Source: Barthelona sp. PAP020
Lineage: Eukaryota
Reading direction: 5' to 3'
Assembly (NCBI GenBank): GCA_040182905.1
Contig: JARQWU010000070.1
Coordinates: 1-39,281, forward strand
DNA length: 39,281 nt
A program made the position numbers and the translations under genes. Shown one piece after another: positions 734 to 39,152 of this stretch; position 1 is the stretch's first letter; every line of letters begins with the position of its first letter. The notes under the pieces were generated by a model. The model saw only the letters and a list, made by a program, of their open reading frames with translations. It had not been told where the DNA came from and ran no database searches.

Positions 734-1936
734 TCAATCATCATCATCTTCATCATTTCTTTCATCACTTTGTTCTTTGAAAAATGAGTGCATATTGCCA
801 CCATTAGTTGCATTGATATCAGAAATATCCCAACAGGCGTCAACAATCATCTTGAACTCCTCCTTATTCATGGAAATACCTGCAGCTACCAATTCTCTGA
901 TAGTTGACATTTTCAAATTAAATGACAAAAGTGCTGATAAGACATTGCCATTGTTCTTCGATAACTGAATAAATTTATCATAATCGGAAGGTGCATGTTC
1001 AATTTTATATTGCTTCATATCACGCTGATATAATCCACAAACAAACTCAGTTCTACAGGGAGATACTGCAAAGGTGAACCAAAAAGAATCACTACCCAAA
1101 GAAAACTTTTGGATTTGACTGTAATCATAGGTGTTCAGTGATATCATATACCCATCAATTGTCATAACGAGCAAAATATTAGAAATTAAATAATTAATTG
1201 CTACAACATCATCCGAAAAATATAAAGTATGAAGAAGATGTCCCTTATCGGAGTTCCAAAACTTAATTTTAGCTGATCGATCACCAATTGCAATTATCTC
1301 CCTCTTTGGATGAAAATCAATGGCTCTAATATGATCATCGTGATTGAACACATGAATGATAGACAAATTATCAGAGTTCATCAATTTAGCAGTTGTGTCT
1401 TCACCACATGATAAAAGATACTTACCATTATTTGACAGCTTTAACCGATAAATCTCACCCAAATGAACTTGACTTTGACACAAAATATGGTAATCTGTTA
1501 GTTTCCACTTTTGGATGACTCCAATATTGTCAGTAGAATATAAATAATTAGAACATTGAGAAAAACACACACAATGAATGGAGTTACTGCAATTAATTTG
1601 TGTCAAAATTGAGAAATCTTTCGTGTTGTACAATATAATTTTTTCATCATTGGAACAAGTTGCAAACATTTTATTATTTAACGAAAAATCAACACTATTT
1701 ACATTTTTTTGGTGATCTTTCAAAGAATAATCAATTGTTTCCGTTATTGTATTATATAACAATACCGTTTTATAGCTACTTATGGCTAACCATTCACCAT
1801 TGGGTGAATATTTACAATCGAGAATCGGACCACAAAGCATTATTCCAATCATTTTCTCTTTCTCTTCGTTGATTTTTGGAGGACAAAGTTTGAGAATTGT
1901 TTCACTTGTTATTTCTTTTCCTAAACTATTTAACAT
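734..1936 (-). CDS. WD40-repeat protein with conserved unrecognised C-terminal domain (paralog of 36851-38068)
   Basis: 400-aa ORF with WD40 blades (DHQKNVNSVDFS...ATCSNDEKIILYN; HDDHIRAIDFHP...GDRSAKIKFWN). The C-terminal ~65 aa align without gaps to the 36851 paralog. Confidence 0.9.
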   Translation of the reverse strand: MLNSLGKEITSETILKLCPPKINEEKEKMIGIMLCGPILDCKYSPNGEWLAISSYKTVLLYNTITETIDYSLKDHQKNVNSVDFSLNNKMFATCSNDEKIILYNTKDFSILTQINCSNSIHCVCFSQCSNYLYSTDNIGVIQKWKLTDYHILCQSQVHLGEIYRLKLSNNGKYLLSCGEDTTAKLMNSDNLSIIHVFNHDDHIRAIDFHPKREIIAIGDRSAKIKFWNSDKGHLLHTLYFSDDVVAINYLISNILLVMTIDGYMISLNTYDYSQIQKFSLGSDSFWFTFAVSPCRTEFVCGLYQRDMKQYKIEHAPSDYDKFIQLSKNNGNVLSALLSFNLKMSTIRELVAAGISMNKEEFKMIVDACWDISDINATNGGNMHSFFKEQSDERNDEDDDD

Positions 1937-2111: not shown

Positions 2112-4679
2112 TTAACTCTTTGAAGAAACTTCAACATCAGGAAATACAATAGAAACAGCTGTATGAACTCTAAAATGACTTGTAATGGAAATATTTCCAC
2201 CAATTTCAGTTAAAATTTTTTTGCATCTGGGCAAACCATAACCAAAATGTCCTTTCTTGGTAGTAAAGCCATGATTGAATACCTTTGATAAATTATCAAG
2301 TGGAATACCTTTACCTTTATCATAAATGGCAATTTCAATAATTCTATTAGCACCCTGAATATTTTCTTTGGCACTGATAACAACGTGTCCTACATCTTCT
2401 GAATTTGGTGAATCTGTGGTATTAACACATGCTTCTACTGCATTAATTAAAACATTGAACAAAACTATTCTCAGCTGTGGCTTTTTTAAATGCGACAAGG
2501 AAAGCCTAACGTCTGAATGATTTTGAACACGTATTATACTTAAAGGAAATTCAACAGCAACTAGTTTTGTCAATAGATCTAAGAAAGAACCTAATTGAAG
2601 GGTATCATCATGTTCTAAAACTGTGTCATTGAACAAATAATCATAGGACATCTTTGCATCAAGTAAATGTTCTTGAGCTTGGTTTATTAGAGTCATATTG
2701 TTCCATAAAGAGCTTAAAAGGTCATAAATATCATCCTCTTTCTCCAATAAACCTGCTAGGTTTTCATCCCTCTGAATTTCTTTTAATAATTCCTTGATAT
2801 CCTTCCAATTATACGAAAGGGGATCAAATCGTTTATCTCCAGTAGCAAATGGAGAAATTTCTTCTGAAAACAATTTGGATACATTGATCAATGTTGAATC
2901 TATGGAACATTGAACCAAATTAAATGTGTTTCTGATCTGATAGCCAGCTAACAGTTTCATTCTACCCAATGATTTTTCATCATGTTGTTTTTCCAAGGTT
3001 TGAATAGTGTTTACTTCCAAACATAAGTCATCAAACTTGATAATGTACCCATAGTGTGTAATAGCTTTTTTTCTATTACGAAAGTCAAATCTATCGAAAA
3101 TAGAGTTAGTTTTAGAATTTATTTCATTGTCTATGTGTTGAGATTGAGATCTTGAAAGTTTTGATCCATTATTATGAGTCTTAGAAGTATTTTTTGAAAA
3201 GGATTCAGCATTATTAAGTGTATTTGCTGTATTTGCTAATGAATTATTCGTGTTCAAATTTGAATTAACTTTTATAGCAGATCTGTTCGTATAAAATAGA
3301 TCTGTAGCAGTATCAAACTTTTCTACTGGCAAAATGTCGACACTGAAATAATGTTTTTTCACATTTGATAAACTATTTAAACAAGGTAAAGCTTCAAGAA
3401 AATATGCAGGAATTGACTGTTCAATATCAAAGATGTTTGAATCACTGTTCACATTTAAATTCCCATTATTACTGTTATCTGTACTGTTTCGCATAAATCT
3501 AACTTCCATATCCATTCGAATGTTAGCAAAATTACAATCTTTTGAGGTGGCAATCTCTTTTAGACGTTGATTCAATATGCTTTTATTCTTGCTATCAGTC
3601 GGTAAAAAATCAGGAAATCTTAACAGAGAATGATTTTGAACATTTATGTTCAAAAGGTAATTAGCAGCTAAATTCGAAAATAACAGCCTAAAATCAGAAT
3701 TAACAATGATAATAGCATTTAAAGAACTGCTTAATAGCAAAGATAAGGACCGATTCACTTTCTTATAGGTTTCTCCATAAATAAAATGACTTCTCCTCAA
3801 TATTATGAAACTTAAGATTAAAACCATTAAAAAGAAGGCAATAATCCCTAAAGTGATGGTTATCGTGGTTGTCTTTACTCTTTGAGGACTTTGTACAGGA
3901 AACTTCAATTGACTCAAAATAATTGTCCCATTTTCAATGAGTTCAGTTAATTTTGGATTAAATACATTGTAAAAAGCAATTCCATTGGCACTATTATTCC
4001 CAAAAGCAAATGTATTAAACTCGGGAGATAGATAAAATTGTCCTTCAACAATTTCTACATCAACTGAAGAATATATCAAATCTATAATATATTGGGCATT
4101 ATAAATATCACAAATAGCAACATCAATACTCTTTGCTACCAATTGTTCTAATAATCCATTTGCTGTGTAATGAAAGTATCGCTTTTCAACTTCTATTTGC
4201 ATACTATCCATTAAAGTTTCAAAGAATTCAGTAAATGAAGCATTTAATGTCAACCCTATTGTCTTTCCTTTGAAATCAAATGGTGAATCATAATTGTCAA
4301 ATCCGTAGACTCCAGCAAAAGTTAATTGGGTAATTGTACTGAATACAGCAAAAGTTTGTCGATAATTCGTGGGAAATAATGGAAATACCATATCAACTTC
4401 ACCTAATTTTAATTTATTCACACATAATGAAGCGGTGTCGACTTGATATTGATATGTATAACTGTTTCCATCATCAATTTTATTTACCGTCTTTAAAAAC
4501 ATTTCAAACATCACACCTTTTATTTCTTCTTCACTAAATACTATCCCATCTCTCGCACTTAAATCATAATTCACGTATGCAAAGGGTGCAAAATCCAAAA
4601 TACATACTTTAATTAATGTACTCTCCACAATATTCAATATCAATATTATAAATATTATCTTATATATCATAAAATCCAT
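2112..4679 (-). CDS. Membrane sensor histidine-kinase-like receptor: signal peptide, periplasmic-binding-protein (SBP_bac_3/PBPb-like) domain, TM, PAS-like region, degenerate DHp, HATPase_c
   Basis: N-terminal hydrophobic signal. SBP-like motifs DFAPFAY, LKLGEVDMV, DFKGKTIG, LVAKSIDVAICD and FNPKLTELIENGT. TM segment TITITLGIIAFFLMVLILSFIIL. PAS-like start LNAIIIVNSDFRLLFSNLAANYLL. N box FNVLINAVEA, G1 YDKGKGIP, F box VFNHGFTTK, G2 GHFGYGL. Confidence 0.85.
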   Translation of the reverse strand: MDFMIYKIIFIILILNIVESTLIKVCILDFAPFAYVNYDLSARDGIVFSEEEIKGVMFEMFLKTVNKIDDGNSYTYQYQVDTASLCVNKLKLGEVDMVFPLFPTNYRQTFAVFSTITQLTFAGVYGFDNYDSPFDFKGKTIGLTLNASFTEFFETLMDSMQIEVEKRYFHYTANGLLEQLVAKSIDVAICDIYNAQYIIDLIYSSVDVEIVEGQFYLSPEFNTFAFGNNSANGIAFYNVFNPKLTELIENGTIILSQLKFPVQSPQRVKTTTITITLGIIAFFLMVLILSFIILRRSHFIYGETYKKVNRSLSLLLSSSLNAIIIVNSDFRLLFSNLAANYLLNINVQNHSLLRFPDFLPTDSKNKSILNQRLKEIATSKDCNFANIRMDMEVRFMRNSTDNSNNGNLNVNSDSNIFDIEQSIPAYFLEALPCLNSLSNVKKHYFSVDILPVEKFDTATDLFYTNRSAIKVNSNLNTNNSLANTANTLNNAESFSKNTSKTHNNGSKLSRSQSQHIDNEINSKTNSIFDRFDFRNRKKAITHYGYIIKFDDLCLEVNTIQTLEKQHDEKSLGRMKLLAGYQIRNTFNLVQCSIDSTLINVSKLFSEEISPFATGDKRFDPLSYNWKDIKELLKEIQRDENLAGLLEKEDDIYDLLSSLWNNMTLINQAQEHLLDAKMSYDYLFNDTVLEHDDTLQLGSFLDLLTKLVAVEFPLSIIRVQNHSDVRLSLSHLKKPQLRIVLFNVLINAVEACVNTTDSPNSEDVGHVVISAKENIQGANRIIEIAIYDKGKGIPLDNLSKVFNHGFTTKKGHFGYGLPRCKKILTEIGGNISITSHFRVHTAVSIVFPDVEVSSKS

Positions 4680-31484: not shown

Positions 31485-31557
31485 TCCGATATAGTCTACT
31501 TGGTTAGGATAGTGGGTTTTCACCCCGCAGAACCGGGTTCGAATCCCGGTATCGGAG
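31485..31557 (+). tRNA. tRNA-Glu (TTC)
   Basis: Acceptor TCCGATA/TATCGGA, anticodon arm GTGGG-TTTTCAC-CCCGC, T arm CCGGG-TTCGAAT-CCCGG, followed by T-run TTGTTTTT. Confidence 0.97.
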
Positions 31558-31607: not shown

Positions 31608-31679
31608 AAATTATTGAGACCTTTCACCACACTGCACANNNNNNNNNNAAATTATTGAGACCTTTCACCACACTGCACA
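31608..31679. other. 10-N scaffold gap (31639-31648) flanked by an exact 31-bp direct duplication
   Basis: AAATTATTGAGACCTTTCACCACACTGCACA at 31608-31638 and 31649-31679. Confidence 0.95.
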
Positions 31680-31695
31680 AAAGAATTAACACAAA

Positions 31696-31844
31696 TTCAC
31701 GTTAGGTACAAGAAAAGGTATACGAAAGCTTTTATATACGGTGTGTTATTGAAATGAGTAGTTGGGAAAGCCTTGAATTTGAATCCTGGCTGTTTGAAAT
31801 GACTTAGTTCTGATTGAAAGATTGGACGATATTGAATCCCTAAA
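31696..31844. repeat. 149-bp tRNA-associated element, copy 1
   Basis: 148/149 identical to 39004-39152, in the same orientation relative to the upstream tRNA. Confidence 0.95.
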
Positions 31845-34736: not shown

Positions 34737-35178
34737 TTTTAACATTTTATTTGTGAATATTATTTATAAATTTATTATTTATTTTTCTTTCAATTTTTTG
34801 ATTCCATTGGGCTAATTAGAACTTCAAACACTTTGTCTATAATTTCACATAAAGAAAATCGAAAGAAGAAGACTTAAATTAGAAGCGAAACCAGAAATTT
34901 CATTGATTTTCTTGACACCGAATTTTTGGTACATATTCTTTCACGAAAAGACAGAAATAACAAATAATTTTGGCTAAAAATGCACTTGAATTTATCTTTC
35001 AAATTTGTTCTCTTTTTAAACAAGAAAAATTAATAAATATTTATCTCATATGATTGAATTAATTAATTATATATTTTTAAAAAGAATCCTATTTCTCTTT
35101 GTGTCTTACTTTTAAATTTTTATATATTTTTAAATTATTTGGTCCAGTTGTAAAACTATTATATTTATTTACAAAGAA

Positions 35179-35686
35179 AATAAACTCAGAAAACTCATTT
35201 CCTCAAATCTCTACGTGGAAAATGTGTGGCTGTAATTGGATCTTGCTCATTAAGTGTGAAAATTTTAAAGTTTAAACTTTACTTAAAAGAATTTGAAGTT
35301 TTTCAGCAAATTAATAGAGTTTCAAAAATTCTTTTTCAAATAGACATTATTCTTTTTTATTTACTTGTATGGACAATCACAGTGCTTCTTTTTGAATCCA
35401 TGTGAGTTATCTCCAGGCCAAGAAGCACTGTGCGTATGAGTGAATAAAAAAGAACAGTGTTCATTTGATTAATGGCTTTCGAGGCCGATTGATCTGTTGA
35501 AGAACTTTAGATTTTCTAAAGTAAAGTTTAAACTTTAAAATTTTGCTTTGCAATAATACAAAAAAATATGAATGAAGAATTTCTCCAAAAATCTCCTGCT
35601 TGATCGTTCCAATTACATTTTAGTCCCTCAATTCCCCTCCTGGGATATTGACTGAAATTTGCTAGACAAAGTTTTCTGAGTTTATT
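35179..35686. repeat. ~500-bp imperfect inverted repeat (foldback)
   Basis: Nested perfect inverted pairs 35179-35195/35670-35686, 35231-35240/35608-35617, 35259-35284/35519-35544 and 35378-35390/35420-35432, with a 29-nt central loop. Confidence 0.92.
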
Positions 35687-35955
35687 AGATATTAATGAGG
35701 TATGAGTTGTTCAGTGAACAACGAAACAAGTTAGCTTATGGTTTGGGAAAAACTCATGTTGATTCAGATGCCCAAGTAACTTAAAAAATTGGACCTAAAG
35801 GGGATCAAGAAACAACAAATAACAGAAGCGATATTTGATGACCTCTTTATATCTCCAATAAATTCCGTTCATTAAGCATAAACTTCTACATTACCTCAGA
35901 AAATCAAAAGTTCTTCAACAGATCAATGGGACCTCCAAAGCCTTTAACCAAATAA
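35687..35955. repeat. Left arm of long inverted repeat flanking the kinase fragment and WD40 gene
   Basis: Reverse complement of ~38435-38645 (44-bp perfect match 35830-35873/38452-38495). 35898-35955 matches 35465-35517 and ~38205-38265 in inverted orientation. Confidence 0.9.
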
Positions 35956-35981
35956 GTACGCAGGTCCCGGGACCTGGTCTT

Positions 35982-36256
35982 GATTCTTGGTCATTTGGAA
36001 GTGTTTATTTTGAAGTTATAACAGGAGATATTCCTTTCAAAGAAACTCAAGACGGGGTGGTTAGTACTGTAATGGTTATCATTATGATGAAGTTAAGAAA
36101 GTTGATGGATATGATTTCAATTTCATGTTCTCATGTTTTCATCCCGAAGCTAAAGAGAGACCAACAATGTCAGAAATTGTTGAGTTTTTAATGATGTTGA
36201 TCGTCAATTGCACAAATAATCCTCAAGCTGATGTTCAAACTGATGTTCAACGTTAA
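35982..36256 (+). pseudogene. Protein kinase C-lobe fragment (subdomains IX-XI), frameshifted
   Basis: DSWSFGSVYFEVITGDIPF in one frame and SCFHPEAKERPTMSEIVEFL...TAA in another. No upstream HRD/DFG/APE, because the upstream DNA is repeat sequence. Confidence 0.85.
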
Positions 36257-36850: not shown

Positions 36851-38068
36851 ATGTTACTTTTGCAATCAACAGAAGAATTGACAAAAAAAGTTATCCATGA
36901 AACAAACAATTGGCAAATTATTGAAAATGATTCAATTAAAATTAAAGCTGATATCTCAAGTTTTATGACATGCTGTGAATATTCACCAGATGGAAAATAT
37001 TTAGCTGTTGGTTGTAATGATGGAGATGTTTACATCATAGATTCAGAGAATGGAAACCTGATTCAAACTTTAGATACCCATTCATACAAAGTTTGTGCTG
37101 TTTGTGCTGTTGCTTTTTCACCTGATGGACAAATGCTTGCAACTTGTGCCGAAGACTGTTTTCTTGCAATTTATTCCCTTGAGGATTACACCATTTCCCA
37201 TTTTTTTAACTATAGTTCTGTTGTTTTTGATATTTGCTTTTCTCATTGCAGTAATTATCTATATTTTCAGGAGATGGAGGGGGTTCTAACTAAATTGAAT
37301 TTGCATAACTATGAGATGGTCCTTAGTGAAGGAGTTGAAGATAGAGCTGTTTGGAAATTGAAACTGTCTCCAGATGGGCGGTATATTTTAACTTCCAATT
37401 GTGCAACAGCTAAATTAATTCTTGCAAATGATTTCTCTGTTGTACACATCTTCGATCATGACGGTTACATCAGTGTTGTTGACTTCCATCCAACACAAAA
37501 AATTGTAGCTGTTGGGGATGATGCACAGTGCATAAAACTCTATAATACAGAAGATGGATCTCTGGTTCGCTCATTTTATGCTAGTGGTGGCTATCTAAAT
37601 TGTATTAAATTTTTATCACCTTATATCATGCTTGTTATGACTACTGATCACTGTTTAACTGCATACAATTTGGATAGTCTTGAAAAGATTCACAGAATTC
37701 AGTGTTATAGCAAAAGCTCAACGAAAACATTTACGATTTCACCTCAATCAACTCAATTAGCCTGTGAGAATCAATATGATGGAAGCATTGAATTATATGC
37801 AATTATGCGTATTTTTGAAACCCTAAATCTTTCTGGACTCATTGAATTGTCGAAGAATCACAGTGGTGTGCTATTGACTCTTATTTCCATGAAGGAGGAT
37901 TTTAAATTAATCAGACAATTAGTAAGTGGTGGAATTTGCATGAATGAGGAGGAGTTTGAAAACATAATTAACATCTGCTGGGATTTAATTACTGTTAATG
38001 AAGCTAATGGTGGTAATATGCAAGAATTTGTGGAAAAGGGAATTGACATTAGCACTGATGATGACTGA
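36851..38068 (+). CDS. WD40-repeat protein with conserved unrecognised C-terminal domain (paralog of 734-1936)
   Basis: 405 aa from ATG 36851. YSPDGKYLAVG, FSPDGQMLATC and HDGYISVVDFHP are collinear with the 734-1936 product over most of its length. Confidence 0.9.
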   Translation: MLLLQSTEELTKKVIHETNNWQIIENDSIKIKADISSFMTCCEYSPDGKYLAVGCNDGDVYIIDSENGNLIQTLDTHSYKVCAVCAVAFSPDGQMLATCAEDCFLAIYSLEDYTISHFFNYSSVVFDICFSHCSNYLYFQEMEGVLTKLNLHNYEMVLSEGVEDRAVWKLKLSPDGRYILTSNCATAKLILANDFSVVHIFDHDGYISVVDFHPTQKIVAVGDDAQCIKLYNTEDGSLVRSFYASGGYLNCIKFLSPYIMLVMTTDHCLTAYNLDSLEKIHRIQCYSKSSTKTFTISPQSTQLACENQYDGSIELYAIMRIFETLNLSGLIELSKNHSGVLLTLISMKEDFKLIRQLVSGGICMNEEEFENIINICWDLITVNEANGGNMQEFVEKGIDISTDDD

Positions 38069-38199: not shown

Positions 38200-38663
38200 G
38201 TATTTATTTGATTAAAGGCTGTTAACGCCCAATTCATTGGGATTAAAAACTTCAGATTTTCCAAAGTAAAGTTAAAATTGATATTTTATTTTTGCCAATT
38301 AATAAAAGAATAGGAATAAAAAATTTTCATATTAGATCACTCATTTAATTTCATAAATTTAAAAGACTTTTATTTTTTTTTGTTAACTCATCACGTTGGG
38401 GTTTGGTATAGTTAGAACTTTTCGATGACGAAGATGTGGAAGTTCATGCTCAATGAACGGAATTTATTGGAGATATAAAGAGGTCATCAAATATCACTTC
38501 CTTTATTTGTTGTTTCTTGACCACCTTTAGGTCCAATTTTTTAAGTTACTTGGGCATTTGAATCCACGTGAGTTTTTCCTAAACCTTAAGCCCTTAGCTA
38601 ATTTGTTTCGTAGTTCACTAAACAACTTATACCTCATAAATATTTAATTATTTTGTAATTGGA
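38200..38663. repeat. Right arm of long inverted repeat / modules shared with 35179-35955
   Basis: ~38205-38300 is a diverged direct match to ~35463-35560, ~38435-38645 is an inverted match to 35687-35890, and TGTAATTGGA recurs at 38654-38663. Confidence 0.85.
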
Positions 38664-38798: not shown

Positions 38799-38869
38799 GC
38801 TTCGTTGGTTTAATGGTAGAATGCGACGTTGCCATCGTTGCGACCCGGGTTCGATTCCCGGACGAAGCA
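38799..38869 (+). tRNA. tRNA-Gly (GCC)
   Basis: Acceptor GCTTCGT/ACGAAGC, anticodon arm CGACG-TTGCCAT-CGTTG, T arm CCGGG-TTCGATT-CCCGG, followed by TTTT. Confidence 0.97.
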
Positions 38870-39003: not shown

Positions 39004-39152
39004 TTCACGTTAGGTACAAGAAAAGGTATACGAAAGCTTTTATATACGGTGTGTTATTGAAATGAGTAGTTGGGAAAGCCTTGAATTTGAATGCTGGCTG
39101 TTTGAAATGACTTAGTTCTGATTGAAAGATTGGACGATATTGAATCCCTAAA
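39004..39152. repeat. 149-bp tRNA-associated element, copy 2
   Basis: 148/149 identical to 31696-31844. The single difference is GAATCCTGG vs GAATGCTGG. Confidence 0.95.

What the first reader, a model, noticed from the sequence alone, without database searches (positions are those of the whole stretch)
2112..4679. Bacterial-style solute-sensing 'histidine kinase' with Tyr in place of the phosphoacceptor His and no receiver domain
Seen: the H-box position reads LGRMKLLAG-Y-QIRNTF, against the canonical LG.LAAGIA-H-EIRNPL. The Tyr codon TAT (2940-2942) is one transition from CAT, the adjacent Glu is Gln, and the Pro is Thr. The N, G1, F and G2 boxes are intact, and the ORF ends right after the HATPase. 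It is AT-rich with an Asn/Ser-rich insert like a resident nuclear gene. Known: eukaryotic HKs are mostly hybrids with a receiver, SBP_bac_3-TM-PAS-HK is a bacterial layout, and HK-derived proteins such as plant phytochromes, subfamily-II ethylene receptors and PDKs no longer use His phosphorelay. Inference: a laterally acquired receptor for amino acids or similar solutes, repurposed as a hydroxyl-residue kinase, ATPase switch or pseudokinase.
Basis: partly seen in the sequence, partly recalled or inferred. Interest (0 to 1): 0.75.

Follow-up and report, generated by a model that had tools for sequence, protein, structure and literature searches.

The report
Histidine-less sensor kinase in anaerobic flagellate
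A single-celled anaerobic eukaryote carries an intact, transcribed gene built like a bacterial nutrient-sensor kinase but with tyrosine where the signalling histidine should be, so it likely senses amino acids at the cell surface and signals without the usual bacterial phosphate relay.

Summary
ORF 2112-4679(-) encodes 855 aa: signal peptide, family-3 solute-binding domain, one membrane helix, a weak PAS-like stretch, a long DHp and a GHKL ATPase, with no receiver. Tyr580 falls in the phospho-His column (His in 72/75 and 75/76 bacterial kinases), and the whole first DHp helix has no His. An EukProt Trinity record labelled Barthelona sp. PAP020 has the same Tyr, so it is not an assembly error.

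Three corrections. G2 is not intact: its first Gly is His811 (Gly in 80/83 and 79/80). The Gln and Thr beside the Tyr occur in His-bearing kinases. 'One transition from CAT' says nothing on a branch of 2.7-6.8 changes per site.

His-to-Tyr is already known twice: Caulobacter DivL, shown to lack kinase and phosphatase activity, and green-algal CSK, a eukaryotic case. The best reading is an ATP-binding pseudo-histidine-kinase receptor, likely for amino acids (about 0.5); a Ser/Thr kinase is the main rival. New here are the surface solute-receptor layout and the host, a metamonad basal to Fornicata. No ortholog was found. Paralogs, receivers and Hpt proteins could not be surveyed, and the donor is unresolved.

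The parts
2112..4679 (-). Uninterrupted ORF, 855 aa, histidine-kinase-derived membrane receptor
   Evidence: the exact protein is in the collection with source eukprot; P0001 identical over aa 1-813
4620..4679 (-). Predicted signal peptide (aa 1-20)
   Evidence: hydropathy peak 2.33 at aa 8-9; the cleavage site is inferred
3894..4619 (-). Family-3 (PBP2-type) solute-binding domain, aa ~21-262; keeps R107 and D191
   Evidence: Pfam SBP_bac_3 E 0.0015, below cut-off; own profile 21.1 bits against a maximum of 8.3 in 1000 shuffles; Arg in 26/26 and Asp in 17/26 bacterial domains
3801..3857 (-). Single predicted membrane helix (aa ~275-293)
   Evidence: hydropathy 2.98
3519..3761 (-). PAS-like N-terminal half (aa ~307-387), weak
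   Evidence: Pfam PAS_9 E 0.025, PAS E 0.092; own profile 7.7 bits, shuffle maximum 11.6
3090..3491 (-). Asn/Ser-rich low-complexity insert (aa 397-530)
   Evidence: no match to 80 bacterial kinases
2859..2978 (-). DHp helix 1 (aa 568-607) with the H-box; N584 kept at H+4
   Evidence: model helix, pLDDT about 68-72
2940..2942 (-). Tyr580 codon (TAT) at the phospho-His position
   Evidence: the same residue in P0001
2625..2807 (-). Extra short helix and long DHp helix 2 (aa 625-685): an extended DHp
   Evidence: His-to-F-box distance 220 aa against 147-185 (58 kinases) and 196-207 (13 long-DHp kinases)
2139..2594 (-). GHKL (HATPase_c) domain, aa ~696-847; N742, N746, D787, G789, G791, G813, G815, G828 kept
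   Evidence: Pfam E 1.1e-13; ZraS Z 21.5, rmsd 1.7, 148 aligned
2247..2249 (-). His811 in place of the first Gly of the G2 box
   Evidence: Gly in 80/83 and 79/80

Best explanation
This is an intact, transcribed nuclear gene for a histidine-kinase-derived protein with no phosphoacceptor histidine and no receiver, which likely works as a surface amino-acid receptor whose predicted ATP-binding core would act as a non-phosphorylating conformational switch (a pseudo-histidine kinase). Shown: the domain order, Tyr at the His site, no other His in the helix, a conserved adenine/Mg pocket, an altered G2 box, and presence in a transcript assembly. Inferred steps: (1) the external domain closes on an amino acid through R107 and D191 (their roles are recalled from HisJ/GlnBP-type proteins); (2) a dimer passes the movement through the membrane helix and linker to the lengthened DHp bundle; (3) the ATPase domain binds ATP, probably with a changed lid; (4) the output is binding to, or allosteric control of, an unknown cytosolic partner rather than His-Asp transfer; (5) the gene came from a bacterium long ago.
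For: Tyr in the His column. A second hit to the catalytic machinery in G2: loss of the His together with G-box changes is the pattern in modified CSKs, and Arabidopsis CSK binds ATP yet did not autophosphorylate in vitro (PMC5054060 passages). DivL, with Tyr550, has no kinase or phosphatase activity (PMC4211667 section 12). Selective constraint: 15 of 21 strongly conserved columns outside the search pattern are kept at about 21% overall identity. Six losses is more than in any of 67 bacterial rows (maximum 4; rows were chosen for having the His). The fold model is a DHp-GHKL. Bacteria have the same layout with a normal His (L093; Atlas top hits 0.93-0.96). Flanks are eukaryotic genes (DHHC, kinesin, clathrin).
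Against: No activity was measured. A well-kept ATP pocket fits a Ser/Thr kinase just as well, and the CSK authors argue this for CSK. BCK and PDK structures tie with histidine kinases in the fold search (Z 20-21). DivL works by binding a phosphorylated response regulator, and none is known here. No ortholog was found, so neither conservation of the Tyr nor dN/dS could be tested. The ligand rests on two residues in a domain below the Pfam cut-off. One transcript form (P0001) ends in an unrelated tail that would break the ATPase.
Confidence: 0.5

Rival explanations
1. A receptor Ser/Thr kinase on the GHKL fold, as inferred or shown for PDK, BCK, plant phytochromes and modified CSK: ligand would switch phosphorylation of another protein.
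For: N box, G1 and two of three G2 glycines are kept. The helical bundle is extended, and the model matches BCK/PDK as well as histidine kinases (Z 21.4 against 21.5, tied). Eukaryotic receiver-less HK derivatives often gained Ser/Thr activity (PMC6324907 passage).
Against: The fold rows are tied and driven by the ATPase domain (full-length rmsd 7-9). The first G2 Gly is lost. Arabidopsis CSK showed no autophosphorylation in vitro.
Confidence: 0.24
2. A DivL-like or phosphatase-only partner in a real two-component network: it would bind or dephosphorylate a receiver, or heterodimerise with a His-bearing paralog.
For: N584 is kept at H+4 (Asn in 66/75), the residue I recall as the HisKA phosphatase determinant. 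Another metamonad, Trichomonas, has 7 hybrid HKs.
Against: No HK paralog turned up among the candidates of three word-limited searches. No receiver family was hit in the 16 other window ORFs or fragments scanned. Giardia and Spironucleus have no HK. The genome itself could not be searched.
Confidence: 0.11
3. A tyrosine autokinase: Y580 would be phosphorylated and serve as a stable docking mark.
For: Tyr sits at the exact acceptor position, with an ATP pocket still under constraint.
Against: The one tested natural His-to-Tyr case, DivL, does not autophosphorylate. H+1 is Gln, not the acidic base (recalled role), and G2 is altered. Conservation of the Tyr is untested.
Confidence: 0.07
4. A decaying relic of a lateral transfer with no present function.
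For: A very long branch (2.7-6.8), a low-complexity insert, eroded PAS, no ortholog found, and one transcript form with a foreign tail.
Against: An 855-codon frame stays open in 30% GC DNA. Signal peptide, membrane helix, ligand Arg and nucleotide motifs are kept across that branch. Codon use lies within the range of 13 neighbours (0.200 in 0.150-0.338).
Confidence: 0.08

Closest known systems
DivL pseudo-histidine kinase (Caulobacter crescentus)
   Same: Tyr at the phospho-His site, DHp plus GHKL core, no receiver. PDB 4q20 matches the model at Z 20.5, rmsd 1.8, 140 aligned, tied with ordinary kinases.
   Different: DivL senses DivK~P inside the cell and uses its PAS domains to control CckA. 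This protein has an external solute-binding domain and a much longer DHp, lies in a eukaryote, and has no known receiver partner. Nothing suggests orthology.
Chloroplast sensor kinase (CSK) of green algae and plants
   Same: A eukaryotic, receiver-less HK derivative; green-algal CSK has Tyr (or Gln) for His, and higher-plant CSK also lost the first G2 Gly yet binds ATP.
   Different: CSK is a soluble stromal GAF protein of plastid origin. This is a predicted single-pass membrane receptor in a plastid-less anaerobe.
Bacterial SBP_bac_3-TM-PAS-HisKA-HATPase sensor kinases (NtrB/AtoS/ZraS-like core)
   Same: Domain order (L093; Atlas), H-box type and best family scores (AtoS model, 58 bits against a cut-off of 646).
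   Different: They keep the His and G2. This one is about 190 aa longer, with an Asn/Ser insert and an extended DHp; identity is at most 26% over the core.
PDK / BCK mitochondrial kinases
   Same: GHKL fold used without His relay; tied structural matches.
   Different: These are soluble, with a different helical domain and no sensor. No sequence match appeared in the PDB sequence search (0 of 17 rows).
PsmA (Streptomyces) histidine pseudokinase
   Same: A His-less HK-like protein acting through a protein partner (abstract only).
   Different: Bacterial, hybrid, and bound to DivIVA.

Membership tests
Canonical HisKA sensor histidine kinase | Phosphoacceptor His in DHp helix 1 | tested here: not met
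   Tyr580; no His in aa 567-670
Canonical HisKA sensor histidine kinase | GHKL ATPase fold with N, G1 and F boxes | tested here: met
Canonical HisKA sensor histidine kinase | G2 box GxGxG | tested here: not met
   first Gly is His811; second and third kept
Canonical HisKA sensor histidine kinase | Helical-hairpin DHp before the ATPase | tested here: met
   model helices at aa 568-607 and 642-685, pLDDT about 60-75; Pfam HisKA itself does not score
Canonical HisKA sensor histidine kinase | Cognate response regulator | not testable with these tools
   no genome is held for this window; no receiver hit in 16 other window ORFs or fragments
Eukaryotic hybrid HK | C-terminal receiver domain | tested here: not met
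   stop after the ATPase; neither EukProt form has a receiver; proteins over 1497 aa were not searched
Pseudo-histidine kinase (DivL type) | His replaced, DHp-CA core kept | tested here: met
Pseudo-histidine kinase (DivL type) | No kinase or phosphatase activity | not testable with these tools
   needs biochemistry
DivL orthologs | PAS-domain sensor region and a DivK/CckA circuit | tested here: not met
   the sensor is a solute-binding domain; 16% identity in the structural match
SBP_bac_3 amino-acid-binding domain | Profile match over both lobes | tested here: met
   21.1 bits against a shuffle maximum of 8.3 and reversed -1.4; Pfam 18.7 bits is under the 26.4 cut-off
SBP_bac_3 amino-acid-binding domain | Conserved ligand Arg and Asp | tested here: met
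   R107 26/26, D191 17/26; their ligand roles are recalled
PAS domain | Complete PAS fold | tested here: inconclusive
   only the N-terminal half scores, weakly; the full-length model was unusable
PDK/BCK-type Ser kinase | Ser/Thr phosphorylation of a substrate | not testable with these tools
   fold tie only

The most novel reading that the evidence does not exclude
A eukaryote has turned a bacterial amino-acid-sensing histidine kinase into a cell-surface receptor kinase with hydroxyl chemistry (Ser/Thr on a substrate, or Tyr580 on itself): a receptor kinase built on the GHKL fold, independent of the usual eukaryotic kinase fold and of any His-Asp relay.
Probability: 0.28. Interest if true: 0.85.

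Novelty: new variant of a known kind. Interest (0 to 1): 0.52.

Why it matters
It would be a third independent His-to-Tyr conversion of a sensor kinase, after DivL and green-algal CSK, and the only one I found on a solute-binding surface receptor. It sits in a free-living, bacteria-eating metamonad at the base of Fornicata, a group whose two surveyed members have no histidine kinase. It offers a candidate nutrient or prey sensor for such cells and a clean test of what a His-less kinase does once the relay is gone. My search pairing Barthelona with histidine kinase found 0 papers, and the readable supplements of one genome paper had 0 hits. The substitution itself is not new.

Tried and rejected
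Sequencing error: rejected, since P0001 has the same Tyr; raw reads were not available.

Another His as acceptor: H566 and H671 score negative in all H-box profiles, and no other His falls in a His column. H803 is shared with 14 of 83 bacterial kinases. H811 as a relocated acceptor is untested speculation.

Splicing to a receiver: not seen in either EukProt form. The 19-aa tail of P0001 matches window 35138-35200 (19 of 21 aa), in repeat-rich intergenic DNA on the other strand, with a 6-base overlap at the join. It is likely a chimeric cDNA or assembly, though a rearranged allele is not excluded.

Bacterial contamination: rejected by the flanking genes. Codon use alone does not exclude an AT-rich bacterium (best of 80 scored 0.206 against 0.200).

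Relatives: none besides P0001 (word-limited; lengths over 1497 aa not searched). None for the single protein in metagenomes (0 of 51 stretches). Only generic ATPase-domain matches in plasmids (56 records) and phages (8).

Donor: three quick trees put it beside the 13 long-DHp kinases without a star, and an AtoS/ZraS-like placement was not rejected (p-AU 0.161). The careful tree did not finish. A profile of the long-DHp group did not align its insert.

The single-sequence fold failed (pLDDT 30.5). A recalled EnvZ H243Y phosphatase result was not found (0 papers) and is not used. Earlier scan notes: none.

Full report
The gene. The window is AT-rich eukaryotic DNA with DHHC palmitoyltransferase, kinesin, glycoside hydrolase 31, clathrin heavy chain and profilin genes. 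The ORF at 2112-4679(-) is uninterrupted and gives 855 aa. Its GC (0.30), GC3 (0.23) and codon score (0.200; 13 neighbours 0.150-0.338) match the flanks. The only close relative found is P0001, an EukProt Trinity ORF labelled Barthelona sp. PAP020, identical over aa 1-813; the exact 855-aa protein is in the same cluster with source eukprot. Barthelonids are anaerobic flagellates kept with prey bacteria, at the base of Fornicata (PMC7542792, abstract and passages).

Anatomy. Hydropathy peaks mark a signal peptide and one membrane helix. The external part matches family-3 solute-binding domains: Pfam E 0.0015, under the cut-off, and 21.1 bits with a profile of 26 bacterial domains (26 of 30 loci; four short matches dropped) against a maximum of 8.3 in 1000 shuffles, 704 of them reported. 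It keeps an Arg found in 26 of 26 and an Asp found in 17 of 26; I recall these as the carboxylate and amine contacts of amino-acid binders. A PAS-like stretch follows but is weak, then an Asn/Ser-rich insert. The ATPase domain scores E 1.1e-13. A model built on 68 sequences (mean pLDDT 76.9) shows a long helix 1, an extra short helix, a long helix 2 and a GHKL fold. Its best structural matches are ZraS, HK853 and BCK, all tied near Z 21, with DivL at 20.5. The Atlas returned bacterial SBP-HisKA-HATPase clusters in all ten rows for the whole protein, and a bacterial protein of the same layout with a normal His was fetched (L093).

The H-box. Y580 aligns to the His column in a profile of 83 cores, which is His in 72 of 75 filled rows and 75 of 76 in 80 metagenomic loci. 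MAFFT places it the same way in A3 (those 67 rows were picked for having the His). Against this, Pfam HisKA does not score, and a sparse position matrix of the helix alone preferred R583, with 51 of 500 shuffles reaching its best score. Splitting by class explains this: the 24 NtrB/AtoS-like rows pick Y580 as best site in the whole protein in three windows (0, 4 and 0 of 300 shuffles), while the CckA-like rows prefer R583 over Y580 without significance. Either way there is no His between 567 and 670. Q581 and T585 are within natural variation, and N584 is conserved.

The ATP site. N742, N746, D787, G789, G791, G813, G815 and G828 are kept. The first G2 Gly is His811 and a later conserved Gly is His839. 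Of 21 columns at least 80% conserved outside the search pattern, 15 are kept; no bacterial row of 67 loses more than 4. So the pocket is under constraint but altered at the lid.

Origin. All other homologues found are prokaryote-type kinases, at most 26% identical over the core. The end branch is 2.7 to 6.8 changes per site in three quick trees (81, 55 and 29 rows; long or redundant rows dropped in the last two), so the codon's closeness to CAT carries no dating. The neighbour is an unstarred long-DHp group, and another placement is not rejected (p-AU 0.161). No eukaryotic HK was included, so lateral origin rests on the layout and on the absence of eukaryotic hits. In a 67-genome survey Giardia and Spironucleus had 0 HKs and Trichomonas 7, all hybrid (PMC6324907 passages).

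Precedent. DivL has Tyr550, binds an ATP analogue weakly and lacks kinase and phosphatase activity; it signals by binding DivK~P (PMC4211667, passages and section 12; 10.1101/812529 passages). Green-algal CSK has Tyr for His (PMC2677595 passages). Arabidopsis CSK, with changed G1 and G2, binds ATP but did not autophosphorylate, and its authors still suspect Ser/Thr activity (PMC5054060 passages). PsmA is another His-less case (abstract). I also saw passages of a VanS preprint on G-box roles, and passages, section 6 and five readable supplements of PMC11316075, with no HK mention; its main supplementary PDF and one scanned file could not be read and may bear on novelty. Searches pairing Barthelona with histidine kinase gave 0 papers; two wider searches gave none on this group (listings only).

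Mechanism. I commit to a pseudo-histidine-kinase receptor (0.5): likely amino-acid binding outside, a predicted dimer passing the signal inward, an ATP-bound core that would act on a partner without His-Asp transfer. Rivals are a Ser/Thr kinase (0.24), a partner in an unseen two-component network (0.11), a relic (0.08) and a Tyr autokinase (0.07). Only the anatomy is shown.

Limits. There was no genome, no raw reads, no ortholog and no dimer prediction. P0001 ends in a 19-aa tail that matches repeat-rich DNA at 35138-35200 with a 6-base overlap at the join; this is likely an artefact but is unresolved.

Verdict. A real and unusual protein, a new variant of a known kind; interest 0.52.

Noticed in passing
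P0001 C-terminus; window 35138-35200 (+): The transcript form leaves the gene inside the G2 box and continues in sequence 19/21 identical to repeat-rich intergenic DNA 33 kb away on the other strand; a 6-base overlap at the join suggests a chimera.
   Followed up: partly
window 35259-36250 and 38200-38648: A family of non-coding repeats: 35684-35891 is an 88% inverted copy of 38434-38648, and 35259-35544 is a 70% self-inverted stretch. Beside them is what looks by eye like a frameshifted protein-kinase remnant (~35860-36250; no Pfam hit at 1e-4).
   Followed up: partly
window 31485-31557 and 38799-38869: tRNA-Glu and tRNA-Gly are each followed by a 149-base repeat, 99% identical (31696-31844, 39004-39152); possibly a tRNA-associated element. 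A 10-base N gap lies at 31639-31648.
   Followed up: no
window 734-1936 (-) and 36851-38068 (+): Two WD40-type ORFs share a C-terminal tail (73% over 116 bases); the first lies just downstream of the kinase gene on the same strand (only the first was scanned with Pfam).
   Followed up: no
window 2247-2249 and 2163-2165 (-): Two nearly invariant glycines of the ATPase domain are both His (811, 839). His811 lies in the G2 box and could matter for catalysis; untested.
   Followed up: partly
L056, L050, L064 and L152: Four bacterial kinases among the fetched loci also lack the H-box His (Lys, Asn, Gln, Lys); none has Tyr.
   Followed up: no
L001, L003, L006, L007, L019, L023, L029, L031, L035, L045, L067, P0002, P0003: A well-supported bacterial kinase clade with Asn after the His and a DHp about 45 aa longer than usual; its function was not examined.
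   Followed up: partly
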